Shown: positions 139-43,874, numbered from the stretch's first letter. The stretch is 64,000 nucleotides of DNA from an uncultured Candidatus Saccharibacteria bacterium (GCA_964457915.1 CAYWFM010000001.1:34623-98622), one strand, 5' to 3'. The notes: generated by a model not told the origin, from the letters alone. Program-made: numbers and translations.

Positions 139-2076
139 TCATGGTGTTACCAGTATGTCATGCTGCGACTCATCACTAAACGTGCGCACTATGATGGTGA
201 TAATAAATACGACCAGACTAAGCACTACCAACCACCACAGGTGCCACACCATAGCAAACCCAAATGCCGTCGCTAGTGCACCAATGCCAATCCCAACAGA
301 TGTCGGCTTGGGCAGAAGTATCTCTTCATTCTTTTCTACAGGAGTGGTACCTTTTTCTTTTTGCATCCAAAACGCGTCGCGTCCATAGACGGTGGGTAGT
401 GTTTTAAAGTTATATGCCGGTGGTGGTGTTGGTAGTGACCACTCGAGTGTGCGGCCACCCCATGGGTCATCATCTACTCGTAACTTCTTTCTATTTTTAA
501 TACTCACCAAAAGCTGCACGACCTGTGCCACAAAGCCCATAACAATAAGCACCGCTCCTATCGCCGCAATAATAAAGAGTGGTTGCCACCCGAGATTACT
601 TGCGTAGTGGTCGAGTCGTCTGGTTGCACCCATAAAGCCCAAAAGGTAGAGCGGGCCGAACGCGAGAAGAAATCCAACGAGCCAGAGCCAAAACGCTCGT
701 CTCCCCCACCGCTCATCGAGCATAAATCCAAACCATTTCGGGAACCAGTACGTAATGCCTGCGAAATAGCCAAACAACACCCCGCTCACTATCATGGTAT
801 GAAAGTGTGCAACCAAAAAGAGACTATTGTGCAGTTGATAATCGGCTGGCGGTTCGGAGAGCATCACACCCGCCACTCCTCCCATGGTGAAGCAGGCAAC
901 AAAACCCATAAACCACAGCATCGGCGCAGGAAATCGGATAGAACCGCGATACATGGTAAAAAGCCAGTTAAAAATCTTAACACCGGTTGGGATAGCGATG
1001 ATCATCGTCATGATGCCAAAAAAAGCATTCACGTTAGCTCCGGCACCCATGGTGAAGAAGTGGTGGAGCCATACAATGAAAGAGAAAAAGGTGATGGCGG
1101 CAATGGAGTAGACCATCGAGGTGTAGCCGGCGAGTTTTTTACCGGAGAAAACAGGCACGATTTCAGAAAAGATACCAAACGCCGGCAGAATAAGAATGTA
1201 TACCTCGGGGTGTCCCCAGGCCCAAATGAGATTCACATACAGCATCATGTTGCCACCCCCATCAATCGTGAAGAAGTGAAATCCGAGCGTGCGGTCCAGC
1301 GACAAAAGCGCGAGGGTAAGGGTGAGAATAGGAAAAGCAAAAATGACGAGCGTCATAGAGCCGAGTACGGTCCATGAAAACATCGGCATCCGCATGAGCG
1401 TCATGCCATGGCAGCGCATCTTAAGAATAGTCACAAAAAAGTTTATACCCGAAAGAAGACTCCCCACCCCACCGACCTGGAGCGCCCACAGCCAATAGTC
1501 AACTCCGGTGCCGGGCGAATATTGCAGCTCAGAGAGCGGTGGGTATGACAGCCACCCTGCGGCAGAAAAATCACCCAGAACGAGCGACACATTAACAAGA
1601 AGCGCTCCTGCGGCAAAGAGCCAGAGACTGATGTTATTAAGGAGCGGAAAAGCTACATCGCGCGCACCAATTTGTAATGGCACCACCAGATTGATGATGC
1701 CAAACATAATCCCCATCGCCACAAAAAAGATCATGATAGAGCCGTGTGCGGTAAAAAGCTCTTGAAAATGGCTTGCACTCACTATCCCCGAAGAGTCGCC
1801 AACCGAGAGCGCTTGCTGTAGGCGCATGAGGAGCATGTCAGCGCCGCCACGAATAAACATAATGAGCGCTATGACGATGTACATCACCCCGATACGCTTG
1901 TGGTCAAGGGAGGTGAGCCACTCACCCCAAAGTCTCTTTGACCACCCAAGCCGAAATACCACATACGCACCCATAACGACAAAGACTATTTCAAATAGCG
2001 CACCACCCATCGCAATGAGATTGTGTGGGAGTACATCAAACGAAAGTCTGCCGAAAAGAAAGGTGTGCCAATGCAT
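139..2076 (-). CDS. cyoB: Cytochrome bo3 ubiquinol oxidase subunit I (heme-copper oxidase subunit I)
   Basis: 645-aa polytopic membrane protein with recognisable heme-copper oxidase subunit I sequence (many His and Trp-rich TM helices, WAHHMF-like motif). Operon with cyoA upstream. Confidence 0.9.
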   Translation of the reverse strand: MHWHTFLFGRLSFDVLPHNLIAMGGALFEIVFVVMGAYVVFRLGWSKRLWGEWLTSLDHKRIGVMYIVIALIMFIRGGADMLLMRLQQALSVGDSSGIVSASHFQELFTAHGSIMIFFVAMGIMFGIINLVVPLQIGARDVAFPLLNNISLWLFAAGALLVNVSLVLGDFSAAGWLSYPPLSELQYSPGTGVDYWLWALQVGGVGSLLSGINFFVTILKMRCHGMTLMRMPMFSWTVLGSMTLVIFAFPILTLTLALLSLDRTLGFHFFTIDGGGNMMLYVNLIWAWGHPEVYILILPAFGIFSEIVPVFSGKKLAGYTSMVYSIAAITFFSFIVWLHHFFTMGAGANVNAFFGIMTMIIAIPTGVKIFNWLFTMYRGSIRFPAPMLWFMGFVACFTMGGVAGVMLSEPPADYQLHNSLFLVAHFHTMIVSGVLFGYFAGITYWFPKWFGFMLDERWGRRAFWLWLVGFLLAFGPLYLLGFMGATRRLDHYASNLGWQPLFIIAAIGAVLIVMGFVAQVVQLLVSIKNRKKLRVDDDPWGGRTLEWSLPTPPPAYNFKTLPTVYGRDAFWMQKEKGTTPVEKNEEILLPKPTSVGIGIGALATAFGFAMVWHLWWLVVLSLVVFIITIIVRTFSDESQHDILVTP

Positions 2077-2080
2077 ATAC

Positions 2081-2920
2081 TTACTGAGACATCATCATAC
2101 TCTTGTTTGCAATAGTAGTATAAAGGTCATCTGCAACCGGTGCCCAGTAGCGTACTGCTTCATTGCTACTGGGGGCAGCGAGTAGTGCGTATGCCGCGTG
2201 CGTGAGTGGCACTGACGAGGGCGTTATACGAGCAATACTCATCCAGGATTCAAACTCTTGTGGTGAAAGTGAACGCACCACAAAGTGCATACCAGCGAAA
2301 CCTTCGCCACTCATGTTTGCAGACGTGCCATAAAAGATACCTGGCTTATCTGCTTGCAGATTGAGCTGGGTGGACATGCCAGGCATAACCATAATTTGTC
2401 CGCCCAGTTGTGGTACCCAAAACGAATTCATAGGGGCGTCTGCGGTAAGCGAAAGGTGTACAGGGACTCCTTGGGGAATAACCAGTTCGTTCACGCTCGC
2501 AATACCAAGCTCTGGATAGATAAAAAGCCACTTCCAGTTGAGCGCCACCACCTCTACCTCGAAGGCTTTGCCGGGTAGTTTTTCATATGGATCTAGTGCG
2601 TGCGAACTCTTCCATGCCACAACCGAAAGACACCCAACGATCAGCGCTGGAACAATCCACCACACCACCTCTGCGACCACGCTGTCATGATCCCAGTTGG
2701 GTGCGTGCTTGCCCTTGGCAGCTGGCCCACCTGCACGATAGCGCCATGCAAAAAGAAATAGCATTACAAACACCGGCACCACCACAATCGCGCACAACAG
2801 GAGTGTTGTATATATGACTGAACGCTCGCCGAGCGCTATGGGCCCTGCTGGGTCAAGTACGGCCATACCTGAAAAAAGGGTGAGCATTAGCACTACTATA
2901 ACCGACAAAAAACACCCCAC
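2081..2920 (-). CDS. cyoA: Cytochrome bo3 ubiquinol oxidase subunit II
   Basis: 279 aa, N-terminal signal/TM helices followed by a cupredoxin-like periplasmic domain typical of quinol oxidase subunit II. 4-bp gap to cyoB. Confidence 0.85.
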   Translation of the reverse strand: MGCFLSVIVVLMLTLFSGMAVLDPAGPIALGERSVIYTTLLLCAIVVVPVFVMLFLFAWRYRAGGPAAKGKHAPNWDHDSVVAEVVWWIVPALIVGCLSVVAWKSSHALDPYEKLPGKAFEVEVVALNWKWLFIYPELGIASVNELVIPQGVPVHLSLTADAPMNSFWVPQLGGQIMVMPGMSTQLNLQADKPGIFYGTSANMSGEGFAGMHFVVRSLSPQEFESWMSIARITPSSVPLTHAAYALLAAPSSNEAVRYWAPVADDLYTTIANKSMMMSQ

Positions 2921-4432: not shown

Positions 4433-4509
4433 TGGTGCGCGGTGAGGGGCTCGAACCCCCGACCTTCTCAGTGTAAATGAGTTGCTCTACCAACTGAGCT
4501 AACCGCGCG
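4433..4509 (-). tRNA. tRNA-Val (anticodon TAC)
   Basis: Minus-strand cloverleaf: acceptor CGCGCGG/CCGCGCA, D-loop AGTTGGTAG, anticodon loop TTTACAC, T-loop GGTTCGAGCCC, CCA encoded. Confidence 0.8.
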
Positions 4510-4606
4510 CTTTCCCTTCATGGCGTTAGCGACGGAGGGTGCCCACACTGTACCTTTATTTTCCTATTTTCTCAATATAGCTACCAAAGATGCTATTATT
4601 TTAACA

Positions 4607-5281
4607 ATGGACGAACAGATGCTCCAATACATACGTACACGCAGAAGTGTGCGCGTTCCAGACGACATGATTCGCCAAGAACTTATCGGTGTTGGCTGGA
4701 GCGCACCTATGGTTGATGAGGCGTTCGCATCTCTCACACCCGAGCCGCCCAAGCCCGCACCGCCACCCACCACTCCCGCGCAAACACCACCTCCAGCAAA
4801 CCCAGCCCCCTCTGAACCACCTGCTGCTATTCCTCTCTCACCGGCACCCACTACCCCACCCATTCAACCAGCACCAACCACAGAACAACCAACATCCGCC
4901 GCACAACCCGCACCGGGCGCAAAGCGCATCTTACTCGTTGAAGACGAGAAGGCACTCGCAACTGTTTTGAGTTTAAAGTTGAAAAATGCCGGCTACGACG
5001 TCACGGTGGTTTACAATGGAGATGACGCGCTGCGCATGCTCGGGAGTAGTTTTTTCGACCTCATGTTGGTTGATATTATGATGCCTAAGCGTGATGGGTT
5101 TAGCGTGCTAGAAGAATTAAAAAAGCAGAACAACCAAATCCCTGTTTTTGCCATGTCGAATCTCGGACAAGAAGAAGACATCGCGCGCGTCAAAAGTATG
5201 GGAGTAAAAGAGTACATCGTGAAAGCAGACGCCTCCCCCACTGACATACTCGCTCGAGTAAATTCATTTTTGAAACAATAA
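4607..5281 (+). CDS. Atypical response regulator: small N-terminal domain, Pro/Thr/Ala-rich linker, C-terminal CheY-like receiver
   Basis: C-terminal 120 aa = receiver domain (RILLVEDE...DLMLVDIMMPKRDGF...K). Residues ~50-105 are PEPPKPAPPPTTPAQTPPP... low complexity. The start is chosen at MDEQML (ATG 4607), preceded by a plausible -10 (TATTAT). Stop is 5 bp before pilB. Confidence 0.7.
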   Translation: MDEQMLQYIRTRRSVRVPDDMIRQELIGVGWSAPMVDEAFASLTPEPPKPAPPPTTPAQTPPPANPAPSEPPAAIPLSPAPTTPPIQPAPTTEQPTSAAQPAPGAKRILLVEDEKALATVLSLKLKNAGYDVTVVYNGDDALRMLGSSFFDLMLVDIMMPKRDGFSVLEELKKQNNQIPVFAMSNLGQEEDIARVKSMGVKEYIVKADASPTDILARVNSFLKQ

Positions 5282-5285
5282 CTCT

Positions 5286-6989
5286 ATGGCTGACCAACAA
5301 GAACAAAAGACAGAGCTAAAAAAGCCAACAACTAAGCTTGAAGATGCGTTTATTAAAGACGCACTTCTGAAGGGCCAGTATGTGAGCGAGACAGACATGG
5401 ACCATGCACAAGAGTATGCCAAGTCGCACCACTCTCCTATCACCGACTATCTTTTTAATGCAGAACTGCTCAACAAAGGCTTGCTCGGTCACGCTATCGC
5501 TGAGGCGCTTGGCGTAAAGTATGTCGACCTATCTCAAAATCCACCACCAAAAGCAACTATTACTAAATTACCAAAAGCTGTTGCTGAGCAGAGTCGGGTC
5601 ATCCTTATAGATGACACAAACGATATCGTCATAGCCACTGACACCACTGACCCAAAAGCTGCAAGCGACGCAGTCGCCTCTCTATTCCCCGGTAAAAAAA
5701 TCTCTGTCGTGTGGACCTTTGGTGCTGATATGGAGCGGGCTTTTCCTCTCTACAAAGAGGCGCTCGCTGTTCGGTTTACCGAAATTATTAAACGTGAACA
5801 AAAGGTTGCTCCTGAAATTGTCGAACAAATTGTAGAAGACGCCATCTTGCTGCGAGCGTCCGACATCCACCTTGAGCCCCAAGAGACTGAGGTGCTGGTG
5901 CGCTTTCGTATTGACGGCGTCCTTGAAGAAGCGGGGTCACTACCCAAACTGCAATACGAAAATATTCTCAACCGCATCAAGATTGAAGCGCGCCTCCGTA
6001 TCGACGAACACATGCGCAGCCAAGATGGTGCGATTCGCTATCACAAGGGCACCAATGCGGCTGACCTGCGTGTTTCTATTGTCCCCACCGTATCGGGTGA
6101 AAAGGTGGTGATGCGTCTTTTGGGTGAATACCTGCGCACACTCACCCTTGCTGACATTGGTCTCTCCCAAAAACACCAAGCACTTCTTACTGAAATAGCA
6201 AACCGCCCTTACGGCATGATCCTCACCGCGGGGCCAACCGGTTCAGGTAAGACAACAACCCTTTACTCAATTTTGCGTCTACTGAATGATTCGACAGTAA
6301 ACGTTACTACCATCGAAGACCCGGTCGAGTATCGTATCGGCCGTATCAATCAGGTGCAGGTAAATAACGCCACTGGGCTCACCTTTGCGAGCGGCTTGCG
6401 CACTGTTGTGCGTCAAGACCCCGACGTAATACTCGTGGGAGAAATTCGTGATTTTGAGACTGCTGAGATCTCCGTCAACGCAGCTCTCACCGGCCACCTG
6501 CTGCTTTCAACCTTTCACGCCAATGACGCCTCTACCGTGGTGCCTCGCCTCTTAGATATGAAGGTAGAACCATTCCTTCTTGCCTCTACTCTTTCCGTTA
6601 TTATCGCGCAGCGCCTTATTCGTCGCATCTGCGCACACTGCAAAGTATCCGAAACAGTCACCGTCTCCTCTCTTATTGATGAGATGCCCAAACTAAAACC
6701 ATTTCTCAGTGGTACCGAGCTCATTGTGTACAAGGGCAAGGGCTGTGATAAGTGTAACCACACAGGATTTAAAGGACAGTCGGGTATTTTTGAATTTATT
6801 GAAATAACTTCCCGCGTTGAAGATGTTATTCTCAAAGATCCTTCTGCTGAAGCTATAGAGCGTGTGGCACGAGGAGAAGGGACAAAGAGTTTTTTTGAAG
6901 ACGGACTCGACAAAGTGCTCGCCGGCATCACCACCTTTGAAGAACTTCTACGCGTAGCACTCCCACCAAAAATTCTTGAGCAACCATAA
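5286..6989 (+). CDS. pilB: Type IV pilus assembly ATPase PilB (GspE family)
   Basis: 567 aa, Walker A GPTGSGKTTTLY, Asp/His boxes, C-terminal tetracysteine CxxC...CxxC zinc motif, GspE-type N-terminal domain. Confidence 0.9.
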   Translation: MADQQEQKTELKKPTTKLEDAFIKDALLKGQYVSETDMDHAQEYAKSHHSPITDYLFNAELLNKGLLGHAIAEALGVKYVDLSQNPPPKATITKLPKAVAEQSRVILIDDTNDIVIATDTTDPKAASDAVASLFPGKKISVVWTFGADMERAFPLYKEALAVRFTEIIKREQKVAPEIVEQIVEDAILLRASDIHLEPQETEVLVRFRIDGVLEEAGSLPKLQYENILNRIKIEARLRIDEHMRSQDGAIRYHKGTNAADLRVSIVPTVSGEKVVMRLLGEYLRTLTLADIGLSQKHQALLTEIANRPYGMILTAGPTGSGKTTTLYSILRLLNDSTVNVTTIEDPVEYRIGRINQVQVNNATGLTFASGLRTVVRQDPDVILVGEIRDFETAEISVNAALTGHLLLSTFHANDASTVVPRLLDMKVEPFLLASTLSVIIAQRLIRRICAHCKVSETVTVSSLIDEMPKLKPFLSGTELIVYKGKGCDKCNHTGFKGQSGIFEFIEITSRVEDVILKDPSAEAIERVARGEGTKSFFEDGLDKVLAGITTFEELLRVALPPKILEQP

Positions 6990-6991
6990 TC

Positions 6992-8032
6992 ATGGCAAAA
7001 GAGAACGAATTTTTTCTTGAAAATCTCAGCATCTTGATGCGCTCCTCGCTACCCATACGCGAGGCGGTTTCTACGTTGAAAGAAGAAATTCATGGCAAGA
7101 AAATGCGTCACGCTGTCGCCATCATCGAACAAGAGATAGATGCGGGTGGCAAAATTTCTACTGCCTTACAAAAAAGCAAACTCCTCTCGGAACGTTATGT
7201 TGCCCTCTTGCGACTCGGTGAGGAAACGGGCGAGCTCCAAAAACAAATGGCGCTCGTGGTGGATGAACAAAAAAAAGAGCAGGCGCTTCATTCTAAAATT
7301 CGTGGCGCACTCATCTACCCGGCCATCGTTATTTTTATCACGATATGTGTGGGTATTTTTACCATGTGGTATATCTTCCCCCGCCTGACCGCCGTGTTTG
7401 CTCAAAATGGTGGTCAGCTGCCAATCACCACACGCATGATCATCGCGATGGGTAACTTCCTCACCGAGTGGGGCGTCATTGTTGTGCCGGGTGGATTTGC
7501 TCTCGCTGCCATTCTTATCTATTTTGGTTTTATCTATTCAAAAACGCGTAGCGTTGGTGAGCGCCTACTCTTACATACACCGGTGATGCGAGCTCTTATC
7601 CAAGACCTCGAGCTGGCCCGCTTTGGCTATGTGATGGGCTCACTGCTTCACGCGGGCATTTCAGTACCTCAGGCACTTATCTCGATGCAGGACTCGACCA
7701 CGTTTGTGCTCTATAAACGATTTTATGCTGAAATGTACACCAAGGTGACGGAGGGGGCCTCGCTCTACAAAGCAATCACCCTGTATCCTCAGTACCAACA
7801 ATTTATACCCTCCTATTTAGCACGGCTCATTTCTGCGGGAGAAATGTCTGGCTCATTATCTGAAACATTGAGTGACATTGGTGAAATGTTTGAAGTTAAA
7901 ACACAAAACATCACTCAAAATCTAAGTGTGATGCTCGAGCCCATCATTATTGTGGTTGTTGGTCTCGCGGTTGCTTTTTTGGCCGTCGCCATCATCTCAC
8001 CTATTTATGGGCTCACGACCCAAATTAATTAA
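6992..8032 (+). CDS. pilC: Type IV pilus platform protein PilC (GspF family)
   Basis: 346 aa with duplicated GspF-like cytoplasmic domains separated by TM helices. Starts 3 bp after the pilB stop. Confidence 0.85.
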   Translation: MAKENEFFLENLSILMRSSLPIREAVSTLKEEIHGKKMRHAVAIIEQEIDAGGKISTALQKSKLLSERYVALLRLGEETGELQKQMALVVDEQKKEQALHSKIRGALIYPAIVIFITICVGIFTMWYIFPRLTAVFAQNGGQLPITTRMIIAMGNFLTEWGVIVVPGGFALAAILIYFGFIYSKTRSVGERLLLHTPVMRALIQDLELARFGYVMGSLLHAGISVPQALISMQDSTTFVLYKRFYAEMYTKVTEGASLYKAITLYPQYQQFIPSYLARLISAGEMSGSLSETLSDIGEMFEVKTQNITQNLSVMLEPIIIVVVGLAVAFLAVAIISPIYGLTTQIN

Positions 8033-8194: not shown

Positions 8195-9580
8195 CTAGTT
8201 ACTGCTCCAGCTTATTTGCTGGTACCCACTCGTTGAGAGGGGAAAGCTTGGCGGAGGACTGTACAAAAGATTTTTATCATACGTGTCGATGGTCGTCGCA
8301 TATCCAGAGGTCAGGGTGTTTTGACTATTAACCCATGACCAAGTCCACTGACCGTATGACATGATGGACCCAAAAATAGTGATGCTTGTCTTGGTATTGC
8401 CTGGGTAGTAAAAGAACTGAGTTGAACCATTTTGAGCGATGAGTGCCGCGTCAATTTCAAGCGCTGAGGGTGCGTTATAGGTGATAACAATATTATTTTG
8501 AGCCAACAAGCCGAGCACCGAGGTGCCATCTTTTGCTGCATACACAATATTTTTAGGGATATATATTGTTGGCGCAGCACTTGCCACATAGGGTAACTTT
8601 GCCGCTGCAACCATTACTCGCCCCTTTACCGTACCTTCAACCCATACGTTGTCTTCTATATATATGATTCCATTTGCTGGAATAGCTGGTGTAGATAGTA
8701 ATTGACGATTCTTGTAGTCTGTATACTCATTATGAGCGACACCATACACATCCCAACCGGTTGGATGTGAGGTGAGGTTTGTTACCTTATAGATACTAAC
8801 CGTACCGTTGCTATTAAACACGAGTGAATATCCCTGCGCGCTTGAGGGAGACAGGTAGATACCACCGCCCTGTGCTGTTGCTTTGAGCGAGGAGAGGTTG
8901 GCGGTCAGCGCTGAAAAATCTACCGCGGGCACAGGAAACTGCCAAAAGCTCTGTACTGCTGGTGATGCCCCTCCCCATACGCCGTTTTGCCACGACTCAC
9001 AGGGAGACCCTTGTGATCCTGGACACTTGTAGGTCGACTTTGCAGACATAATGGGTGCATTCCCCACCCCATCGAATCGAATACCATTGTTCGACTGAAG
9101 CTTTCCACTAACTGTTTCGCCAGCACCAATCCAGACAATGTCGTTACTTAAAAATGAAAATTGTGCGAGCGAGGGTATACCATATTGAGCCGTAATGGTG
9201 CGTTTGTTGTTTGGATTTGCACTGGTCCAACCTGTCGACTGTATGGTGACAATGGTCGACCCTACCACCGGTGGCGTGATCGTAAGACTGTACTGCCCTA
9301 CCACCTTTCCTGTGGTGAGATCAGTATACGAGTGCACATATGGTCCTGCGGTGGTGGTACCATCTCGATAATCAACCGGGAAGTGTGCCAGATGCCACTG
9401 GTAGTAGTTAATTCCCGCTTCTGCAATCTGAAAGGCTTGTTCATGATTAATACGCCCCGGCCCCATCTGTACCTCTTTGCGTACCACATCGATAAGCGGC
9501 ACGATCATGAGCGAACAGATAAACAACAGCATGAGCATGCCCACAAGCGCATCTCCCCGTATGTAGCGCGTCTGTTTCAT
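8195..9580 (-). CDS. Large pilus-associated protein with N-terminal membrane anchor, non-canonical prepilin-like N-terminus
   Basis: 461 aa. The N-terminus MKQTRYIRG|DALVGMLMLLF resembles a class-III leader but lacks Glu+5. The rest is Ser/Thr/Gly/Asn-rich beta-type sequence. Last gene of the pilin operon (1-nt overlap with the upstream gene). Confidence 0.5.
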   Translation of the reverse strand: MKQTRYIRGDALVGMLMLLFICSLMIVPLIDVVRKEVQMGPGRINHEQAFQIAEAGINYYQWHLAHFPVDYRDGTTTAGPYVHSYTDLTTGKVVGQYSLTITPPVVGSTIVTIQSTGWTSANPNNKRTITAQYGIPSLAQFSFLSNDIVWIGAGETVSGKLQSNNGIRFDGVGNAPIMSAKSTYKCPGSQGSPCESWQNGVWGGASPAVQSFWQFPVPAVDFSALTANLSSLKATAQGGGIYLSPSSAQGYSLVFNSNGTVSIYKVTNLTSHPTGWDVYGVAHNEYTDYKNRQLLSTPAIPANGIIYIEDNVWVEGTVKGRVMVAAAKLPYVASAAPTIYIPKNIVYAAKDGTSVLGLLAQNNIVITYNAPSALEIDAALIAQNGSTQFFYYPGNTKTSITIFGSIMSYGQWTWSWVNSQNTLTSGYATTIDTYDKNLLYSPPPSFPLSTSGYQQISWSSN

Positions 9581-10191
9581 TAGTTGCCGAGGTTAGTCTT
9601 AAGGTTGCGTAGTGTAGCTCCCGCAGTCATGGTAAACGTACTTGTTCCGGTGCGACTATCTTTCGTGAATACCGTTAGCGCCATTTGCACGTATGTCACC
9701 TGCGCAATCGGTACAGGCTGTGCAAGCGGTATGGATGTTGTGGCGCCGGTATAATTCCCATCATAGTACGTAAAAATAGTCGCCGTGCTCGAAGCAAGTG
9801 GCGTGAGCGATGAGATTTGTTCAGATGCAACAGGATACGTGGGTGGTGTGCCAATTGGTCGGGTTACCCCTTTATACAACACTCCACTTGAGGTGAAGTA
9901 CCTTACTTTTTGTATCGAACCATCATAACTTCCATACGGGGTATAAAAAATAATTGCCGTAGAACTTGCTAGAGTGAGTGGGTACGAACCATCTCCCGCG
10001 GTTGTTGCATCACGAATTTCGTTAAGAAAGGCGTTAGTCACTATACGGGTCTTATCAATAGTACCAATAGCAAGTGGCTGTTGGGCCGTTAGCGAAAAGA
10101 TTTTTGCTATAGTCCCCACTGCCGCAGCCATAATAAGAAGGCCAACCGCCAGAGCAATGAGAAATTCTACTAGAGTGACGCCGCGGTTCAT
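9580..10191 (-). CDS. Type IV (pseudo)pilin, prepilin-peptidase substrate
   Basis: 203 aa. MNRG|VTLVEFLIALAVGLLI = short basic leader, Gly-1, Glu+5, hydrophobic N-terminal helix. Confidence 0.7.
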   Translation of the reverse strand: MNRGVTLVEFLIALAVGLLIMAAAVGTIAKIFSLTAQQPLAIGTIDKTRIVTNAFLNEIRDATTAGDGSYPLTLASSTAIIFYTPYGSYDGSIQKVRYFTSSGVLYKGVTRPIGTPPTYPVASEQISSLTPLASSTATIFTYYDGNYTGATTSIPLAQPVPIAQVTYVQMALTVFTKDSRTGTSTFTMTAGATLRNLKTNLGN

Positions 10192-11957
10192 TGGCTTAAT
10201 TGTACGCGCAACGTTTGCTGCCCCGACAGGGTGATGTTGCTAATGGTCTGCGTTTGGTATCCAGGCATCTGCACCTCGACCTGATAGCCCCCCGTTTGGG
10301 TTATGCCAGCAAACATAGATTGCCCGGGAGTATAACAGCCAGACATGTAGTTAATGGTGACGTTACTCAATACCGGCGTGGTGGTGGTGCTGGTGGTGGT
10401 GAGTAGCGCTTTGTAGCGTAGGTATCGCTTATTGTTGAGCACGCTATGTATGGTGGTTCCGGGGACTGTGTAGTATGTGCTCGCTGTTCCATCAGGGCCT
10501 ACAAAATTCCATGTTGCATTATCAGTATTTGCCGCTAGTTGAAACATGACCGAGGTAGATGCGCTTTGTGATTGTGGGTTCCAGGTAAGTGTCGAGAATG
10601 TTGTTGAAGCGGTACCGGTATCAAACGTCGATGATATGAGTGACCCTGAAGACACGTACGCACCACTCACCTGCGCGAGACGCACTCCATTTGGTTGCGT
10701 TTGTGTATCGATAGTACCGCTGTCGCTTGCGTACTTATTTGCTGCCAAAAAATCTTCTTGCCCAGAGCCTCCGGTCCAGTCTTCCTGGTACAAGATACTC
10801 CCGGCGGTGAGCTTGCTTGCGCTGTATCCGATACCGCTGTTTCGAAGAGTCACCGTGGCACCCTCAACCGAGTTACCCGTCGATGCGTCAGTCACCACAA
10901 CCAGTAAACTATTACTGGTAGCGGGCCCGAGCATAAGCGTTGACTGTTGCGCTGTATTGGGAAGTAAATTTATCTGCTGCAGCGGCGAAGAACCATACAA
11001 CATATAACTCCCCTTTGGTGTTGGGGTGTACGTATCCCATTCGATGGGATTTATGACAATCTTCCCGACACCATCGGTGGTGAAAGTCTGATCAAATTTT
11101 AAAACACCGGGTGTCCCTATAAGTTTCGCACCCTTCAATTGGATATCAGCTCCTGAAACAGGGCGACAGGTCTGGTCAACCGCCTTGAGTGTCAGAGCAC
11201 TTAATTGATCAATAGAGAAGCTAACCGAGGTGCTTTGTCCCACCAAAACAGTAGCGTCAGGTTTTGTAGGATTTGGGTTAGGCCCCGTGCTCGGGTAGGT
11301 TTGGTCGGTGGAGTAACCACTGTTTAAGGCAACGATGTGGTAGCTGTTCGCGCTCGCTTTCACTCCAACCTCGGTCCACTTCCCCTGGGCATCCGTGGTA
11401 CGCACCACATCCAGTGCCGGCACAATGGTTGGGTTTGTAATATGTACCGTTGCGCCAGGGACGGGCTGTCCGATAGCGTTTATAACACTCAAGACTAAAG
11501 CACCGCCAGTCGCCATATTTTCAATACCTTTTGGTACAACCGTGGTTACGAATGATGACTGATGGTTGGTAGTAAGATTTTTTATATATAGTTTGACCTG
11601 CTTGTAGTCCGTATCGGTGGGACCGGTGCCATCAGCGGGGTCATCAACATAGGCAACCGTGTAGTAGATTTGGTATTTTGCGCCATTATAGGCAACCTCC
11701 TGTGGATTTACGAGATCTGGTAATGGCCCTGAAGGATTACCCGTCTTGGTGCCCACTTGGGCGTATGGCAAATTGCGGGCAATTTCAATGTAGGATTGCG
11801 ACAGTGCAGCAACCGCCGCCGTATCTCGATAGGTGCGAAGACCCCGGATCGCAGCGGTACCTAGTGCAATAATAGAAAAAACGAGAAGGGCAAAAATAGC
11901 GAGCGATATGAGTGTTTCAACAAGCGTAAACCCTCGCACCATTCTGCGCGCATGCAT
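10188..11957 (-). CDS. Giant type IV pilin-like protein (589 aa) with class-III signal peptide
   Basis: MHARRMVRG|FTLVETLISLAIFALLVF prepilin motif with Glu+5, followed by ~550 aa of Thr/Ser/Gly-rich, probably Ig/CarboxypepD-like beta domains. 4-bp overlap with the next pilin gene. Confidence 0.65.
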   Translation of the reverse strand: MHARRMVRGFTLVETLISLAIFALLVFSIIALGTAAIRGLRTYRDTAAVAALSQSYIEIARNLPYAQVGTKTGNPSGPLPDLVNPQEVAYNGAKYQIYYTVAYVDDPADGTGPTDTDYKQVKLYIKNLTTNHQSSFVTTVVPKGIENMATGGALVLSVINAIGQPVPGATVHITNPTIVPALDVVRTTDAQGKWTEVGVKASANSYHIVALNSGYSTDQTYPSTGPNPNPTKPDATVLVGQSTSVSFSIDQLSALTLKAVDQTCRPVSGADIQLKGAKLIGTPGVLKFDQTFTTDGVGKIVINPIEWDTYTPTPKGSYMLYGSSPLQQINLLPNTAQQSTLMLGPATSNSLLVVVTDASTGNSVEGATVTLRNSGIGYSASKLTAGSILYQEDWTGGSGQEDFLAANKYASDSGTIDTQTQPNGVRLAQVSGAYVSSGSLISSTFDTGTASTTFSTLTWNPQSQSASTSVMFQLAANTDNATWNFVGPDGTASTYYTVPGTTIHSVLNNKRYLRYKALLTTTSTTTTPVLSNVTINYMSGCYTPGQSMFAGITQTGGYQVEVQMPGYQTQTISNITLSGQQTLRVQLSQ

Positions 11958-11978: not shown

Positions 11979-13622
11979 TTACGAAGCGGTTTGTACCAAA
12001 AGCGGAATATCAACGAAAAACTGCGTCCCCTTCCCCACCCCTTCAGACGCCGCAGTGATAACGCCATGATGTGACTCCACAAACGTTTTCACAATAAAGA
12101 GCCCTAGGCCCGAACCATTGTTGTTTACCTCTTGTGCATTGTCGCCACGGGTAAATTTTGAGAACATACGCTTGAGCGTTTCTTCACTCATCCCGATACC
12201 GGTGTCGCGTATTTCTACGTGAGCCATTGAGGTGCCTGGCATTTTTCGTAACATGATCGAAATATTGCCCTTGGGGGTATATTTTGTTGCGTTGTCGATA
12301 ATGTTGCTGAAAACTTGTTTTAGTTTTCCACCATCGCCCCAAACCATAACCTTCTCTTCAGGGACGGACACTTCAATTTGCAATCCTTTCTTTTCAACAC
12401 CGGGGCGCAACTCGCTACCGACGCTGGTGATAAGCGCCGCCAAATCAACAGGGCCAAACTGGTACTGCATCCTCCCCTGCTCAATGCGAGATACATCAAG
12501 GTAATCGTTGATCATCACTGCCATACCGGAACTTTCATCAATGAGCGTCTTCATGGCGGCTTTCAGGTTGTCCGGTAGCGGCCCATAGGTGCCATCCATA
12601 ATGGAGTCGATACTCCAGCGAATAGCGGTAAGAGGTGTTCGCAGTTGGTGTGACGCAAAAGAAAGGAACTCGCTTTTCTCTTTGTCGATTTCGCGCAACC
12701 GCGCATTGGACACCTCCAGCTCCCGCTCTTGCTTTTCAATAAGCTCGCGCTGCTTCACCTCTCGATTAACGCTACGTACCAGGAAATAGCCAAACATGAG
12801 CATAAAAACTAAGACAAACCCATCCAATATTGCAAAATTTATATCTGGCTCTGCAAATAATTTTCCAAAAAGGACAATATCGATGGTCGCAATCAAAGAT
12901 TGGGTGAGGAGAATTTTTATATCAAATAAATGATATTGCGTAATAGCGTACGCAGTTATTCCTAAGAAACCAAGCACATATAAAGGGGTAAATTGTAAAA
13001 AAAATGTGGTATTGAAAAAGAGCAATGGAATTAAAATGGTCAAAATGATAAGTCCCAAAAGAAAAATAATACCAAGAAGCATGGTGCCCAACTGTCGCCT
13101 CGTTTCACTCTCTGCACGAAAATATGACGTCGTTAAAAAATAAAGAGAGAGGATTGCAAAAATCGTAGAAATAACAACAAATGGCAACAGCCCGACTCCT
13201 GCCTGAGGCTCACTGAGTCCTTCTATTTGTTGGACTCCAACAAAAGCATACGGTGAGAGATTGAGGCCCATCATAAGCAGTGTAGCCGCTATAGAGATAT
13301 ACAAACCTTTTTTCGGAAGGGTTATGGTTTGAGAAGGCATAATATAGCCCAAGAGAAATAGGGAAAAACTCATTGGCGCAGCAAAAAAGATTCCCAAACG
13401 ATGTAGCGAAAGAGACGCGCTATTCAGCTCTGGTATACGCACTAAAAAAGTATCCAGCATCCATAGCGTGGTAAAAAAACTTAGGACACAGAAGATTCTA
13501 TTGGTCGCACTATTGGGATTATTTCTGTACACCAAAAATCCCATAATAGTAGAACCGACCAATGCCAACACAAAAGCAACGAGAGAAAGAGGTGAATCGT
13601 ATGGAAGAGTAATATGAATCAT
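11979..13622 (-). CDS. Membrane-bound sensor histidine kinase (multi-TM N-terminus, HisKA + HATPase_c)
   Basis: H-box SHQLRTPLTAIRWS, N/G1/G2 boxes (DNATKYT, DTGIGM, GSGLGL). ~8 predicted TM helices in the first 300 aa. The start is set at MIHITL, giving an ATGA overlap with the upstream nitroreductase-fold gene. Confidence 0.85.
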   Translation of the reverse strand: MIHITLPYDSPLSLVAFVLALVGSTIMGFLVYRNNPNSATNRIFCVLSFFTTLWMLDTFLVRIPELNSASLSLHRLGIFFAAPMSFSLFLLGYIMPSQTITLPKKGLYISIAATLLMMGLNLSPYAFVGVQQIEGLSEPQAGVGLLPFVVISTIFAILSLYFLTTSYFRAESETRRQLGTMLLGIIFLLGLIILTILIPLLFFNTTFFLQFTPLYVLGFLGITAYAITQYHLFDIKILLTQSLIATIDIVLFGKLFAEPDINFAILDGFVLVFMLMFGYFLVRSVNREVKQRELIEKQERELEVSNARLREIDKEKSEFLSFASHQLRTPLTAIRWSIDSIMDGTYGPLPDNLKAAMKTLIDESSGMAVMINDYLDVSRIEQGRMQYQFGPVDLAALITSVGSELRPGVEKKGLQIEVSVPEEKVMVWGDGGKLKQVFSNIIDNATKYTPKGNISIMLRKMPGTSMAHVEIRDTGIGMSEETLKRMFSKFTRGDNAQEVNNNGSGLGLFIVKTFVESHHGVITAASEGVGKGTQFFVDIPLLVQTAS

Positions 13623-14683
13623 ATGTGGACTTTTCGAACGTGTGGATGCTGTTTGTGTGCATGTGCAGATGGAGCTGGCCCATATCCCACACGACAAATC
13701 ATTGAGATACGGCGATTCGGTGGCACCATTGCCAATCTCTCTAAACGTTCTTCAGTACTCTTTATAAGCAGGGCGTGAGCCTCAGAAAAAGCTTGTGCAT
13801 CACCTCCTCGTACTCTCTGTCCAAGATACGGCATTGCTCCTAATGGGTGCACGGAAAGACCGTGAGTCATCGCGGTAAGCCATACCCTCTCCAGGGCTCG
13901 GCCTGTATTAAAAAATGATACATTGCTTTGTTCGGAAATAGTGAACACCAGTATAGCGGAACAAGCTGCATAGGTTATCTGAGATTGTTTTGAAATGAAA
14001 CGAGAAAACCCAAAACGATTCAAAAACGAAACCACCTTCCAAGAAGGAAGTACGTACCGAAACATAAGCGCAACAGGAGGGGGAAACTCCATTGTTTTAA
14101 TGTATAGACCTGGATCTTGCTGCTCTTCTTTTACATTCCAGCGTATCTTGGTGAACAAAAAATCATGCAGTGTTTTATTTTCCATGAGCAGGCGTTCATT
14201 AACACTTATGCATGCAGCCATCTCTTTAATGATTTTAGGATCTTCAACACACGTCATCAAAACATCTTCTGGAAGAATTGTGAGTTGAGTTATGGCTCGG
14301 AGAGATTCTGGCGTAAGGGGTGTCCTTTTATAGAGCTTGCGATTGGTTGTTCTCTGTTTGATTGCTTGAGTTATTTCATTTGAACTCTTTTCAGCCGGAC
14401 TAAATATAAGATGAGCTACGCAATCCTTTTCTTTTTGAAACGCTAGCACCTCCACCGAGTATCCTTCTTGTTTAGCAAGTAGTGCTATATTTTCAACGAG
14501 TGCGCCGTGCCCAAGATACGATCCTCTCTCTTTATAATTATAAAGGGTGTCATCTGCGCCAGTTTTGTTATAAATCATTAAACCATCCTCAAGAATCTCA
14601 AATTCCCATGGTTGTGCGTTATCACCGGAAGGAGCGTTCACCGCTATCGGTAAAATTTTTTCAATAATTTCTTTTACGATCAC
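13619..14683 (-). CDS. Nitroreductase-superfamily protein, double-length (354 aa; SagB/McbC-like or Acg-like tandem nitroreductase fold)
   Basis: N-terminal APSGDNAQPWEFEI matches the PSxxNxQPW signature of the FMN nitroreductase fold, and an RxxxRK(L/F) motif lies further in. The length is about twice a canonical nitroreductase. Confidence 0.55.
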   Translation of the reverse strand: MIVKEIIEKILPIAVNAPSGDNAQPWEFEILEDGLMIYNKTGADDTLYNYKERGSYLGHGALVENIALLAKQEGYSVEVLAFQKEKDCVAHLIFSPAEKSSNEITQAIKQRTTNRKLYKRTPLTPESLRAITQLTILPEDVLMTCVEDPKIIKEMAACISVNERLLMENKTLHDFLFTKIRWNVKEEQQDPGLYIKTMEFPPPVALMFRYVLPSWKVVSFLNRFGFSRFISKQSQITYAACSAILVFTISEQSNVSFFNTGRALERVWLTAMTHGLSVHPLGAMPYLGQRVRGGDAQAFSEAHALLIKSTEERLERLAMVPPNRRISMICRVGYGPAPSAHAHKQHPHVRKVHI

Positions 14684-16122: not shown

Positions 16123-17157
16123 CTACTTATCGAGTCTCTCTGATGGCTGCAGTGCCAGGTCACAACCCATCACATAACGACCCGAGGGCAGCGATGACCC
16201 CAGAGCAAGCGAACGAACTGCGTACGCCACAGCAACACCAGCGAGTGATGCGGCCGTCCCAAGTTGGGCTATCCCAGAAAGGGTTTTACCCACCTCTTGT
16301 ACTGACTTTTCTTGTCGCTCAGTGAATAAAGAAGGATCTATAATTTGATTTGCAAGAGAAACAAATCGCTCGCGAGACATGTTTTTGAGGTTAGATGGAA
16401 CTCGTTTAATACGACCATGAAAAATAGGTTGTTTTGTATCGCAGTCAAAGCGTTCAACATCAAGAATTACACTATCGCCATTATCGGTAGCCATGAGAAC
16501 AGGAATCCCTGCCTTTTTACAAGCAAATCGTACGGCAAACTTCATCGCAATATCATCCATCTCATCAACCAACACATCGAGATTATTGATGAACTCCGGC
16601 AATGATGCAATTTCAACACCCCTATCCCATGATTCTATTTTTAGGAACGGGTCTATCTCCCAAGCAGCTCGCGCCGCTATAGTAACTTTAGGCAACCCAA
16701 CATCAAGCACTGTCCCGCGAATTCGATTAAGGTTAGTAATTTCCAAAATATCTGGGTCGGCAATTCGTAACATTTTTGGACCACCTGTCGAAACTAACGA
16801 TTGCAGTACTGCAGAACCAACAGAAAGCCCCAATATGCCCACCTTACTTGCACGATATACTAGCTGTTCATCGGGCAAGATGAGGTTTCGATTACGGGCT
16901 GTACGTAAACGAAAATAAATCGACTCCTCAGGTAGACAAACTGCCACATTCCTCCACGGGAAATACACCCACACACAAGGACGCTCTCGTACTTGCTTTC
17001 GAACATACTTCTCCAATACAGCCGCGTCGTGTCTCCCTTTTGCTATATGTGGGTGTTCAACAAAATACAATTCAGTGAAAGCACTTTTCCGCGTATCAAT
17101 TTTTTTACAGGTACGCGGAAGTTTTTGAGAGGCGGTAAAAAAAATTGGTTTTTGCAC
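16123..17157 (-). CDS. E1-like (ThiF/MoeB/MccB family) adenylyltransferase with ~100-aa N-terminal extra domain
   Basis: Rossmann GxGxxG (ILGLSVGSAVLQSL), ITNLNRI (ThiF xxNLNRQ motif) and D-x-x-D (VLVDEMDD) are present. No CxxC zinc motif seen. The N-terminal 100 aa is unrelated to the E1 fold. Confidence 0.75.
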   Translation of the reverse strand: MQKPIFFTASQKLPRTCKKIDTRKSAFTELYFVEHPHIAKGRHDAAVLEKYVRKQVRERPCVWVYFPWRNVAVCLPEESIYFRLRTARNRNLILPDEQLVYRASKVGILGLSVGSAVLQSLVSTGGPKMLRIADPDILEITNLNRIRGTVLDVGLPKVTIAARAAWEIDPFLKIESWDRGVEIASLPEFINNLDVLVDEMDDIAMKFAVRFACKKAGIPVLMATDNGDSVILDVERFDCDTKQPIFHGRIKRVPSNLKNMSRERFVSLANQIIDPSLFTERQEKSVQEVGKTLSGIAQLGTAASLAGVAVAYAVRSLALGSSLPSGRYVMGCDLALQPSERLDK

Positions 17158-17162
17158 GTTAC

Positions 17163-17558
17163 TTATCCCCTTCCAAGTGCTTCGCGGATCTTGTCTACTA
17201 CAATGACCGGCGTCGTGTCTGCCTTAACCAAGTAGAACACCGGTTCGTATACCTCGATCGCTTTAATTATCTGGTTACTGTCGGGGGTAAGGTTGGTGAG
17301 CATGATGACGGGCACCTGCGCACCATAGGGAATGTTTTTGCGCAGCTGCTGTAGCATAGAGAGCCCGTCGGTCCCTGGCATCATGATATCGAGCACAATA
17401 ACTGCCGGGTGTTTGCGCAACGCAAACTCAAGCCCTTCAGCTCCATCGCCTGCTTCGATGACCTCATAGCCGGCATCTCGCATTTTTTGAGTGAGGAGGC
17501 CACGCAATGTTTTTTCGTCTTCGACGATGAGTATGGTTTGTCCCTGTGTCTGTGCCAT
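17163..17558 (-). CDS. Stand-alone CheY-like response regulator receiver (no output domain)
   Basis: 131 aa. ILIVEDE...VLDIMMPGTDG...K conserved receiver residues. 5 bp upstream of the E1-like gene in the same orientation. Confidence 0.85.
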   Translation of the reverse strand: MAQTQGQTILIVEDEKTLRGLLTQKMRDAGYEVIEAGDGAEGLEFALRKHPAVIVLDIMMPGTDGLSMLQQLRKNIPYGAQVPVIMLTNLTPDSNQIIKAIEVYEPVFYLVKADTTPVIVVDKIREALGRG

Positions 17559-32505: not shown

Positions 32506-32973
32506 TTAATGCTTATGAATCTCAATAAACCGCTCATCTTCACCCGCATCGTCTGCTGAAAAATTAAGGAGGAGGTCGGGGGTCGGCAACACACCTTCAA
32601 CACGCTCGGGCCACTCTATGACGACCAATGTCTGCGGGTCATTAAGAAAAGTCTCGGGCTTCAGCGCCGAGAACTCTTCGGGCTTTTCAAAACGATATGC
32701 GTCGATGTGCACGAGCGAGGTAAAACGCCCAAAATTGATATCGTAGCGCTTCATGATGACATAGGTTGGGCTCTGCATAGTAGCTGTGACACCAAGCTCA
32801 GCACCCAGTGCCTGCACAAAGGTAGTTTTCCCTGCACCAAGGTCGCCTTGCAGAGCTAGAATGAAGGCCCGTGCGCCCGACTTCGCCAAGACTTCGGCGG
32901 CCAAGAAGGACCCTATGTTCTCCACCATCATTTTTGCAAACGCCGGCAAATTAGTTTTTGAAACCCTTTCCAT
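32506..32973 (-). CDS. tsaE: tRNA threonylcarbamoyladenosine biosynthesis protein TsaE
   Basis: 155 aa, P-loop LQGDLGAGKTTFVQAL, YjeE family. Confidence 0.85.
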   Translation of the reverse strand: MERVSKTNLPAFAKMMVENIGSFLAAEVLAKSGARAFILALQGDLGAGKTTFVQALGAELGVTATMQSPTYVIMKRYDINFGRFTSLVHIDAYRFEKPEEFSALKPETFLNDPQTLVVIEWPERVEGVLPTPDLLLNFSADDAGEDERFIEIHKH

Positions 32974-33011
32974 ATATAAGAGAGTACCAAACTCGAGGTA
33001 GAATAAAAGTC

Positions 33012-42229: not shown

Positions 42230-42432
42230 ATATAAAATCTTTTACTACTATTAGGGGTGTGGATACGGGGATAAGTCCAAAAAAACTTTATATGAAGCCC
42301 TTTTATAAAATCGTTCGGTAGCATAATGGTGTGTATATCTTAGCGGTCTTGTGTGAATATGCAATAAGTCTCCACTACCTCTCCCCAGATACTCATGTTT
42401 GTGCAGTGTGTTATACACAACATACACACAGG
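42230..42432. promoter_or_regulatory. Candidate oriC / DnaA-box region between dnaA and dnaN
   Basis: AT-rich 200 bp with DnaA-box-like 9-mers: TGTGGATAC (42258-42266), TTATACACA (42411-42419), TGTGAATAT (~42350). Further boxes TGTGGAGAA (43841-49) and TGTGGATAG (43852-60) lie in the dnaA-rpmH spacer. Confidence 0.45.
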
Positions 42433-43794: not shown

Positions 43795-43874
43795 ACGCGC
43801 TTAGTGTGGCCGCGTCAAAAACGAGGTTCTGTTGAGAAGTTGTGGAGAACGTGTGGATAGGCTACAATGTCGCC

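What the first reader, a model, noticed from the sequence alone, without database searches (positions are those of the whole stretch)
4607..8032. Pilus ATPase operon led by an inverted-architecture response regulator (small N-domain, Pro-rich linker, C-terminal receiver)
The receiver domain is at the C-terminus, whereas it is normally N-terminal. It is preceded by a roughly 45-aa domain (MDEQMLQYIRTRRSVRVPDDMIRQELIGVGWSAPMVDEAF) and about 55 aa of PEPPKPAPPPTTPAQTPPPANPAPSEPP low-complexity linker. Its stop is 5 bp from pilB, and pilC follows 3 bp later, so all three are almost certainly co-transcribed. A second receiver-only regulator sits at 17163. The window therefore holds two output-less receivers and one kinase around the pilus genes. 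That points to a phosphorelay or protein-protein control of pilus dynamics rather than transcriptional control.
Basis: partly seen in the sequence, partly recalled or inferred. Interest (0 to 1): 0.5.

Follow-up and report, generated by a model that had tools for sequence, protein, structure and literature searches.

The report
Tethered receiver regulator leading pilus-motor operon
In a Saccharibacteria genome, the operon for the type IV pilus extension motor (pilB-pilC) starts with a phospho-receiver protein that has gained a small three-helix module on a long proline-rich tether at its front end, so it is a likely direct, non-transcriptional switch for pilus activity, but a variant of a known theme rather than a new kind of system.

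Summary
The ORF at 4607..5281 (+) encodes 224 aa. It has a 45-aa three-helix module, a 60-aa linker (40% Pro) and a complete C-terminal receiver (Pfam REC E 5.5e-23) with E112/D113/D156/S184/Y203/K206 intact. pilB follows after 4 nt and pilC after 2 nt.

The start at 4607 is supported:
- Orthologues begin MDEQML.
- The ATG at 4520 is ATA in two relatives and lies 12 nt from a tRNA-Val gene.
- There is no in-frame start between codons 35 and 121, so the linker must be translated.

REC-pilB-pilC is conserved in 14 loci. In most the receiver is a plain 123-aa CheY-like protein. The N-terminal extension is limited to a narrow Saccharibacteria clade (5 loci) and is under purifying selection (dN/dS 0.05-0.12).

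Best reading: a 7TM histidine kinase in the convergent pilin operon phosphorylates the receiver, which acts on the PilB/PilC motor by protein contact, and the module serves as a docking or tethering domain. The second receiver (17163) belongs to a ThiF operon and is not pilus-linked. This is a new variant of a known kind, of moderate interest.

The parts
4433..4508 (-). tRNA-Val(TAC). It marks the upstream boundary of the operon and leaves only 98 nt before ATG 4607.
   Evidence: ARAGORN. The same tRNA is found upstream of the RR gene in L003, L009 and L001.
4591..4599 (+). TGcTATTAT, a possible extended -10 element ending 7 nt before the ATG. This implies a leaderless or near-leaderless mRNA (inferred, not shown).
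   Evidence: Conserved in window, L009 and L001. No Shine-Dalgarno-like sequence precedes 4607, pilB or pilC. The consensus scan found no full -35/-10 promoter on the + strand.
4607..4741 (+). RR residues 1-45: an acidic three-helix module (helices 3-14, 19-29, 33-43), RecX-repeat-like, member of a large family absent from Pfam and NCBIfam.
4742..4921 (+). RR residues 46-105: Pro/Thr/Ala/Gln-rich linker (40% Pro), predicted disordered or extended. Length varies from 40 to 114 aa among orthologues.
   Evidence: Sequence. AF2 pLDDT 44-50. Linker statistics. No in-frame start codon inside it.
4922..5281 (+). RR residues 106-224 plus stop: CheY-like receiver with E112, D113, D156 (phospho-acceptor, nt 5072-5074), S184, Y203 and K206. 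Family signature SNLGQxED after beta4.
   Evidence: Pfam PF00072 E 5.5e-23. Alignment to E. coli CheY. Invariant columns in 33 family members.
5286..6989 (+). pilB: type IV pilus extension ATPase (567 aa) with an MshEN-like N-domain.
   Evidence: T2SSE 1e-116, MshEN 3.8e-6. TIGR02538 6.9e-140, below that model's cutoff.
6992..8032 (+). pilC: platform protein (346 aa).
   Evidence: T2SSF 2.7e-46. GspF/PilC NCBIfam matches.
8195..9580 (-). 461-aa protein with no family match and an N-terminal hydrophobic segment. It is the last gene of the convergent pilin operon and may be a non-canonical minor pilin or tip protein.
   Evidence: No Pfam hit. Conserved in synteny in L001, L002, L003, L004, L005 and L009 at 71-94% identity.
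9580..10191 (-). Pilin-like protein, 203 aa (prepilin N-methylation motif).
   Evidence: PF07963 N_methyl 6.2e-5. Synteny.
10188..11957 (-). Large pilin-like protein, 589 aa (N_methyl motif plus CarboxypepD_reg domains).
   Evidence: Synteny.
11979..13697 (-). Histidine kinase with a 7TM sensor region, first gene of the convergent pilin operon (22 nt before the 589-aa pilin gene). Candidate cognate kinase of the RR.
   Evidence: HisKA_7TM 4.7e-8, HisKA 6.6e-14, HATPase_c 4.7e-25. Same position in L001. HK-REC-pilB-pilC order in the distant locus L142.
17163..17558 (-). Second stand-alone receiver (131 aa). Probably not part of the pilus system; it is co-oriented with and 5 nt upstream of a ThiF-family gene (16123..17157).
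   Evidence: REC 2.4e-19, ThiF 7.3e-21. Only 33% identical to the pilB-linked receiver.

Best explanation
The gene encodes a cytoplasmic, phosphorylation-competent CheY-like response regulator dedicated to the type IV pilus extension machinery.

**Shown**
- It heads a tightly packed RR-pilB-pilC operon. This arrangement is conserved across Saccharibacteria and more distant lineages, normally with a bare receiver.
- In one narrow clade the receiver has gained, at its N-terminus, an acidic three-helix module (RecX-repeat-like fold) on a 40-114 aa proline-rich spacer.
- The module is under purifying selection.
- It belongs to a large family in which it is normally the cytoplasmic N-terminal tail of single-pass membrane proteins.

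**Inferred**
- The 7TM histidine kinase that leads the convergent minor-pilin operon phosphorylates D156.
- The phosphorylated receiver changes pilus extension by binding PilB and/or PilC. It probably uses its strongly conserved beta4-alpha4 face (SNLGQxED), as single-domain and PatA-type regulators do in other bacteria.
- The N-terminal module does not bind DNA. It docks the regulator to a cytoplasmic or membrane-proximal partner.
- The extended Pro-rich tether lets the receiver reach the motor while keeping it local. This is a 'tethered CheY'.
For: **Architecture and intact phospho-switch residues**
-.

**Operon compactness and conserved order**
- Searches show the spacers.
- Conserved order is seen. 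Five more distant loci show it, one of them as HK-REC-pilB-pilC.

**The receiver works without the module**
- Orthologues whose PilB is 71-74% identical carry a bare 123-134 aa receiver in the same position.
- This rules out DNA binding as the ancestral output.

**The module is a genuine, selected domain**
-.

**The module is cytoplasmic**
- 130 of 152 top family members carry it at the extreme N-terminus, and 98 of those have a TM segment after it.
- K/R residues are enriched on the module side of the TM in 50 of 70 single-TM proteins, against 8 with the opposite bias.
- When the module is C-terminal, it follows a second TM after a signal or anchor sequence.

**The module is acidic**
- Mean net charge is -2, and helix 3 also averages -2.

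**Kinase in conserved synteny**
-.

**Precedents for receivers acting directly on PilB/PilC**
- PatA-type PATAN-REC regulators bind PilB1 and PilC through their N-terminal domain (10.1101/2021.06.11.447907).
- PilG/PilH control PilB localisation (PMC11656802).
Against: - No interaction was or could be tested here, so PilB/PilC as the target rests on gene linkage and analogy.
- The kinase-regulator pairing is inferred from synteny alone.
- The module's partner is unknown. Its fusion partners in other proteins are heterogeneous (PsbP_2, RDD, PD40, S8 peptidase and others).
- One checked genomic context of a module-bearing protein (P0137) showed no pilus genes.
- Close REC homologues also occur away from pilB (L087, L010).
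Confidence: 0.5

Rival explanations
1. Transcription factor with swapped domain order. The N-terminal three-helix module is a helix-turn-helix DNA-binding output, and the phosphorylated regulator auto-regulates the pilB-pilC promoter or the convergent pilin operon.
For: - The receiver is most similar in sequence to OmpR/PhoB/YycF-class receivers, which dimerise on phosphorylation.
Against: - The module is acidic, and helix 3, the would-be recognition helix, averages net -2.
- The family is mostly made of tails of membrane proteins or tandem arrays on giant surface proteins.
- Orthologous operons work with a bare receiver.
- No Pfam DNA-binding family reaches threshold.
Confidence: 0.12
2. The receiver is a phosphate sink or phosphorelay intermediate that never touches the pilus motor. 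Operon linkage only ensures co-expression. The N-terminal extension is a localisation tag unrelated to pili, or a nearly neutral addition.
For: - Single-domain receivers often act as sinks. PilH has been proposed as one (PMC11656802).
- A second receiver and only one kinase are visible in the window.
- Related receivers occur away from pilB.
- The extension is absent from most orthologues.
Against: - REC directly upstream of pilB-pilC persists down to 32-44% receiver identity. This is hard to explain without a functional tie to the motor.
- No DNA-binding regulator or Hpt protein that a sink would compete with is visible near the kinase.
- The extension is under purifying selection, so it is not neutral.
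Confidence: 0.2
3. Annotation artefact. The true product is an ordinary stand-alone CheY that starts after the Pro-rich region, and the upstream part is untranslated.
For: - Most orthologues are 123-aa receivers.
- The Pro-rich region is low-complexity.
Against: - No in-frame ATG/GTG/TTG exists between codon 35 and codon 121, which lies inside the receiver.
- The reading frame is kept through linkers of 40-114 aa in six orthologues.
- The N-module has dN/dS of 0.05-0.12 and a strong family match.
Confidence: 0.02

Closest known systems
PatA-type (PATAN-REC) response regulators of cyanobacteria (PixG, PixE, TaxP1, LsiR)
   Same: - The domain order is inverted, with a non-DNA-binding N-terminal domain and a C-terminal receiver.
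- They control type IV pili by protein contact. The N-terminal domain binds PilB1 and the N-terminal part of PilC and is the output (10.1101/2021.06.11.447907).
   Different: - The N-terminal domain here is a 45-aa RecX-repeat-like three-helix module, not a PATAN domain, and Pfam reports no PATAN match.
- It is joined by a long Pro-rich tether.
- The kinase is a classical 7TM HisKA kinase, not a CheA-type chemosensory kinase.
- The gene sits inside the pilB-pilC operon.
PilG / PilH (Pseudomonas Chp system) and other single-domain CheY-like regulators of twitching
   Same: - They are CheY-like receivers without a DNA-binding output that influence PilB localisation or activity (PMC11656802; PMC10519157).
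- Most orthologues of the window gene are exactly such bare receivers.
   Different: - No CheA/CheW/MCP genes are seen near the operon.
- The receiver is closest in sequence to OmpR/PhoB-class receivers.
- This member carries an extra N-terminal module and tether.
RomR of Myxococcus xanthus
   Same: It is a response regulator with no DNA-binding domain, built as receiver plus proline-rich region plus a short acidic part, and it acts in motility-machine polarity by protein contacts. The titles and abstracts of PMC3420945, PMC3441718 and PMC12719032 describe RomR as a receiver-domain polarity regulator. The domain layout is from my own knowledge of those papers.
   Different: - The order is mirrored: RomR has the receiver at the N-terminus.
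- RomR acts through MglA/RomX, which were not seen here.
- No sequence relationship outside the receiver was tested or expected.
RecX (RecA regulator)
   Different: - There is a single repeat instead of three.
- It is acidic rather than basic.
- No RecX Pfam match appears for the window protein itself.
- The context is a membrane-protein tail or a receiver, not recombination. The similarity is one of fold, not family membership.

Membership tests
CheY-like receiver (REC, PF00072) superfamily | Match to the receiver profile above the curated threshold. | tested here: met
   81.7 bits against a cutoff of 30.2, E 5.5e-23, covering profile positions 1-109 of 111. AF2 gives an alternating beta/alpha fold.
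CheY-like receiver (REC, PF00072) superfamily | Catalytic and switch residues: acidic pair, phospho-acceptor Asp, Thr/Ser, aromatic switch residue, Lys. | tested here: met
   E112/D113, D156, S184, Y203 and K206 align with CheY D12/D13, D57, T87, Y106 and K109. D113, D156 and K206 are invariant in 33 relatives. The usual Pro after the Lys is missing (K206-A207).
OmpR/PhoB-family response regulator transcription factors | C-terminal winged-helix Trans_reg_C (PF00486) output domain and a full-length match above the NCBIfam cutoff. | tested here: not met
   NCBIfam matches to PhoB, YycF, OmpR and others cover only the receiver part, at 76 bits against cutoffs of 270-340. No PF00486 match. The protein ends 7 residues after the receiver.
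PatA-type (PATAN-REC) response regulators | N-terminal PATAN domain preceding the receiver. | tested here: not met
   Pfam at E<=1 reports only Response_reg and a weak OKR_DC_1_N match. The N-terminal part is 45 aa and has three helices.
PatA-type (PATAN-REC) response regulators | The N-terminal domain binds PilB or PilC. | not testable with these tools
   Needs two-hybrid or pull-down assays, or a multimer structure prediction.
PilG/PilH-type chemosensory response regulators | Partnered with a CheA-type kinase (ChpA) and MCP/CheW genes. | tested here: not met
   The only kinase in the window is a HisKA/HATPase_c kinase with a 7TM sensor. No Che-type domains appear among the window ORFs scanned. 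The rest of the genome was not available.
RecX family | Three tandem three-helix repeats matching RecX_HTH1/2/3 profiles. | tested here: not met
Unannotated 'YI..R..G.s...IRq.L...GW....IdeAF' three-helix module family (defined here) | Significant match to a profile built from family members other than the RR proteins, and conserved Y8, L26, G30, W31. | tested here: met
Type IV pilus assembly ATPase PilB / platform PilC (for the two downstream genes) | T2SSE and T2SSF domain matches. The NCBIfam equivalog cutoffs are a stricter test. | tested here: inconclusive
   The Pfam domains are far above threshold. The equivalog models TIGR02538 (467 against 676 bits) and the PilC models fall below their cutoffs, as expected for a divergent phylum. 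The pilin-like neighbours support a type IV pilus role.

The most novel reading that the evidence does not exclude
The 45-aa three-helix module may be a general cytoplasmic docking tag of ultra-small episymbiotic prokaryotes. It is seen here in Saccharibacteria, and in proteins named by their sources as Parcubacteria and Nanoarchaeia.

On this reading, hundreds of membrane-anchored surface proteins and the pilus-motor regulator use the tag to bind one shared cytoplasmic hub, possibly the type IV pilus base itself. Its fusion to the PilB-linked receiver would have happened twice independently: the window clade and the L002 lineage carry modules that are closer to those of membrane proteins than to each other. 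The module would then be the regulator's true output or localisation domain, functionally equivalent to PATAN.
Probability: 0.15. Interest if true: 0.7.

Novelty: new variant of a known kind. Interest (0 to 1): 0.42.

Why it matters
- Saccharibacteria depend on type IV pili for twitching, host binding and competition (PMC11623550, PMC9894109). Neither of these two pilus papers discusses a regulator of the motor, and a full-text search of the held library found no paper linking Saccharibacteria two-component genes to pili.
- A receiver gene fused into the pilB-pilC operon, with a 7TM kinase leading the facing minor-pilin operon, is a concrete and testable candidate for how these reduced-genome episymbionts switch pili on and off.
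- The finding also exposes a large domain family, absent from Pfam and NCBIfam, that forms cytoplasmic tails on membrane proteins of Patescibacteria and DPANN-type organisms. Its rare fusion to a receiver gives a handle on its function.
- The general principle, a CheY-like or inverted-order regulator acting on PilB, is already established in cyanobacteria, Pseudomonas and Myxococcus. This extends a known theme and does not open a new one.

Tried and rejected
**Searches that gave little or nothing**
1. The search for homologous proteins with the N-domain alignments A1 and A2 returned nothing and two short proteins respectively, because of the word index. This gave no taxonomy or domain co-occurrence.
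2. The genome-contig scan with the single protein returned only three Saccharibacteria or Patescibacteria loci. The rest were unrelated receivers, many of them hybrid kinases matched through the Pro-rich stretch.
Five of the 80 were followed by pilB, and none had the module.
5. Foldseek against afdb50 was unavailable.
6. The genomic context of one module-bearing membrane protein (P0137) showed no pilus genes.
7. A Pfam scan of 119 module-bearing proteins showed no recurrent partner domain.
8. No second copy of the module exists in the window or in any fetched locus.

**Readings rejected**
- The start at 4520.
- A start after the linker.
- FimV-like, PilZ-like or PATAN identity for the N-domain.
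- Membership of the second receiver (17163) in the pilus system.

**Limit on the promoter evidence**
- The consensus promoter scan gave no more hits than shuffled sequence. The proposed extended -10 rests only on conservation.
Full report
**1. What is in the sequence**

The window comes from a Saccharibacteria (Patescibacteria) genome. The closest loci are titled 'uncultured Candidatus Saccharibacteria bacterium' and 'Patescibacteria group bacterium'.

An ORF runs on the + strand from 4520 to 5281. Translated from ATG 4607 it gives 224 aa. Pfam places a receiver domain at residues 108-217 (E 5.5e-23) and finds nothing in residues 1-51. NCBIfam agrees: all of its matches (PhoB, YycF, OmpR and others) cover only the receiver part and fall far below their cutoffs.

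pilB (5286..6989; T2SSE 1e-116, with an MshEN-like N-domain) follows after 4 nt. pilC (6992..8032; T2SSF 2.7e-46) follows after 2 nt.

**2. Where the gene starts**

The public gene call uses ATG 4520 (P0001, 253 aa). Four observations favour 4607:
- Orthologues P0002-P0004 begin MDEQML.
- The ATG at 4520 reads ATA in L009 and L001, while the region around 4607 is conserved.
- 4520 lies only 12 nt from the 5' end of a divergent tRNA-Val gene (4433..4508). A promoter-like site for that tRNA falls inside 4547..4575.
- A conserved TGcTATTAT ends 7 nt before 4607. No Shine-Dalgarno sequence precedes it. This suggests a leaderless transcript, but that is an inference.

That test fails: there is no in-frame ATG, GTG or TTG between codon 35 and codon 121, and codon 121 lies beyond beta1 and the acidic pocket.

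**3. The receiver**

Aligned to E. coli CheY, the residues E112/D113, D156, S184, Y203 and K206 occupy the positions of D12/D13, D57, T87, Y106 and K109. The domain therefore looks competent for phosphorylation and switching.

Across 33 relatives at 42-77% identity, the stretch after beta4 (S-N-L-G-Q-x-E-D) is almost invariant. This is the face that receivers commonly use to contact their targets. The usual Pro after the conserved Lys is absent.

**4. Conservation of the operon**

The same RR-pilB-pilC order, with the same N-terminal extension, is found in L009, L001, L003 and L002. These also carry the convergent genes p461, pilin203, pilin589 and the kinase, as far as each contig reaches.

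Orthologous operons whose PilB is 71-74% identical (L004, L005, L007) carry a bare receiver of 123-134 aa. One of them has a C-terminal Pro-rich tail (P0019).

The linkage persists in more distant loci:
- L088, with 44% receiver identity.
- Five metagenomic loci at 32-42% receiver identity, one of them ordered HK-REC-pilB-pilC.
- L006, where the receiver follows a pilB-pilC-pilin cluster on the same strand.

Two relatives are not next to pilB (L087, L010).

The ancestral state is therefore a stand-alone CheY-like protein heading pilB-pilC. The extension is a later gain in a narrow clade.

**5. The linker**

Residues 46-105 are 40% Pro and 89% P/T/A/Q/S/E. The orthologous linkers range from 40 to 114 aa and always stay in frame. 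AlphaFold gives them pLDDT 44-50. This pattern fits a flexible or polyproline-like spacer whose length, rather than sequence, is loosely constrained.

**6. The N-terminal module**

*Family size.* A profile of four RR N-termini, searched against 1.84 billion cluster representatives, found 568 proteins at E<=1e-3. Conversely, a profile built from 56 of these non-RR proteins scores the window module 67.9 bits and the divergent L002 module 62.0 bits.

*Position and topology.* In 130 of the 152 best proteins the module sits at the extreme N-terminus. In 98 of those a transmembrane segment follows, with a median start at about residue 72 and an S/P/A-rich linker in between. In 50 of 70 single-TM members, Lys/Arg residues are more numerous on the module side of the TM segment; 8 show the opposite. 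When the module is C-terminal, it usually follows a second TM segment in proteins that start with a signal or anchor sequence. Both patterns place the module in the cytoplasm, as it must be in a response regulator.

*Fusion partners and taxa.* The partners are heterogeneous and mostly unannotated. The only source names recovered were a Nanoarchaeia archaeon and a Parcubacteria S8 peptidase.

*Charge and selection.* The module is acidic, with a mean net charge of -2, and helix 3 also averages -2. This argues against a DNA-recognition role. Among close orthologues its dN/dS is 0.05-0.12.

**7. An unexplained point**

The window-clade module is only about 30% identical to the L002 module, although the receivers are 71% and the PilB proteins 80% identical. 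Each module is closer (45-55%) to modules of unrelated membrane proteins. Two independent captures, or a module swap, would explain this. With about 45 positions the evidence is suggestive only.

**8. The rest of the signalling set**

The kinase (11979..13697, minus strand; HisKA_7TM, HisKA, HATPase_c) is the first gene of a minus-strand operon. That operon continues with a 589-aa and a 203-aa pilin-like protein and a 461-aa protein with no family match. It converges on pilC and is conserved in synteny. This kinase is the obvious candidate partner for the regulator.

The second receiver (17163..17558, minus strand) is only 33% identical to the first. It lies 5 nt upstream of a ThiF-family gene. 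A nitroreductase-like ORF, an unknown + strand ORF and the ThiF gene separate it from the kinase. I see no reason to assign it to the pilus system.

**9. Mechanism**

The best-supported reading, with confidence about 0.5, runs as follows:
- The 7TM kinase senses an envelope or contact signal and phosphorylates D156.
- The activated receiver acts directly on the PilB/PilC motor encoded in the same transcript.
- In this clade the receiver is held by the N-terminal module at a cytoplasmic or membrane-proximal partner through an extended tether.

The steps that are shown are the architecture, the intact switch residues, the conserved operon, the fact that the module is a selected cytoplasmic domain, and the kinase synteny. 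The steps that are inferred are phosphotransfer from that kinase, binding to PilB or PilC, and the docking role of the module.

Precedents exist. PatA-type regulators have the same inverted order and bind PilB1 and PilC through their N-terminal PATAN domain (10.1101/2021.06.11.447907). PilG and PilH steer PilB localisation (PMC11656802). RomR combines a receiver with a Pro-rich region for polar targeting (and my own knowledge for the domain layout).

The rivals are:
- an inverted transcription factor (0.12);
- a sink or relay receiver with no contact to the motor (0.2);
- an annotation artefact (0.02).

**10. Novelty and score**

I found no curated family for the module. I found no paper in the held library that links Saccharibacteria two-component genes to pili. 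However, a CheY-like or inverted-order regulator at a type IV pilus motor is an established theme.

I classify the finding as a new variant of a known kind, with interest 0.42. The most novel reading not excluded is that the module is a general docking tag of CPR/DPANN cells and the real output of this regulator. I give that a probability of 0.15 and an interest of 0.7 if true.

Noticed in passing
window 32958..34685 (+): A second PilB-type ATPase (575 aa; T2SSE 8e-108, MshEN 1.7e-7), 40% identical to the operon PilB over the ATPase core. It lies between tsaE (32506..32973, minus strand) and ruvB, with no receiver and no pilC beside it. Two PilB paralogues recall the two pilus systems described for TM7x (PMC11623550).
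   Followed up: partly
window 41129..45047: dnaN (41129..42229, minus strand), dnaA (42433..43794, minus strand) and a YidC-type insertase (44325..45047, + strand). The cumulative GC-skew minimum falls at about 40-42 kb. This is probably the chromosomal replication origin region.
   Followed up: partly
window 45546..58779 (-): A long minus-strand cluster with a PrgI-family protein (51697..52146), a TraG/VirB4-like P-loop ATPase (49195..51036) and large ORFs of 947 and 799 aa with no family match. It looks like a conjugation-type or type IV secretion-like system.
   Followed up: partly
window 139..2920 (-): Haem-copper oxidase subunits I (COX1, E 2e-146) and II (COX2 plus COX_ARM), so an aerobic terminal oxidase in a Saccharibacterium. 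The syntenic locus L001 also shows COX3, COX4_pro and UbiA.
   Followed up: partly
window 16123..17558 (-): A stand-alone receiver (17163..17558) lies 5 nt upstream of a ThiF-family E1-like gene (16123..17157), downstream of tRNA-Arg. A receiver paired with an adenylating enzyme is an unusual pairing and was not examined further.
   Followed up: no
window 4922..5278 (+) and alignment A3: The pilB-linked receiver family has an almost invariant S-N-L-G-Q-x-E-D after beta4 and V-E-D-E-K after beta1. It lacks the usual Pro after the conserved Lys (K206-A207). This may serve as a diagnostic signature and a likely target-binding face.
   Followed up: partly
L002 882..1487 versus window 4607..4741: The N-terminal modules of two orthologous regulators are about 30% identical, while their receivers are 71% and their PilB proteins 80% identical. 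Each module is closer to modules of unrelated membrane proteins. This may reflect independent capture or a domain swap.
   Followed up: partly
L007 5388..5860: A small antitoxin/toxin-like gene pair (a ribbon-helix-helix-like 68-aa ORF followed by a RelE/ParE-like ORF, judged from reading the sequence only) lies directly upstream of the REC-pilB-pilC operon in a related genome.
   Followed up: no
window 4591..4606 (+): A conserved TGcTATTAT ends 7 nt before the start codon, and no Shine-Dalgarno sequence precedes the regulator, pilB or pilC. This suggests a leaderless first gene and translational coupling of the two that follow.
   Followed up: partly
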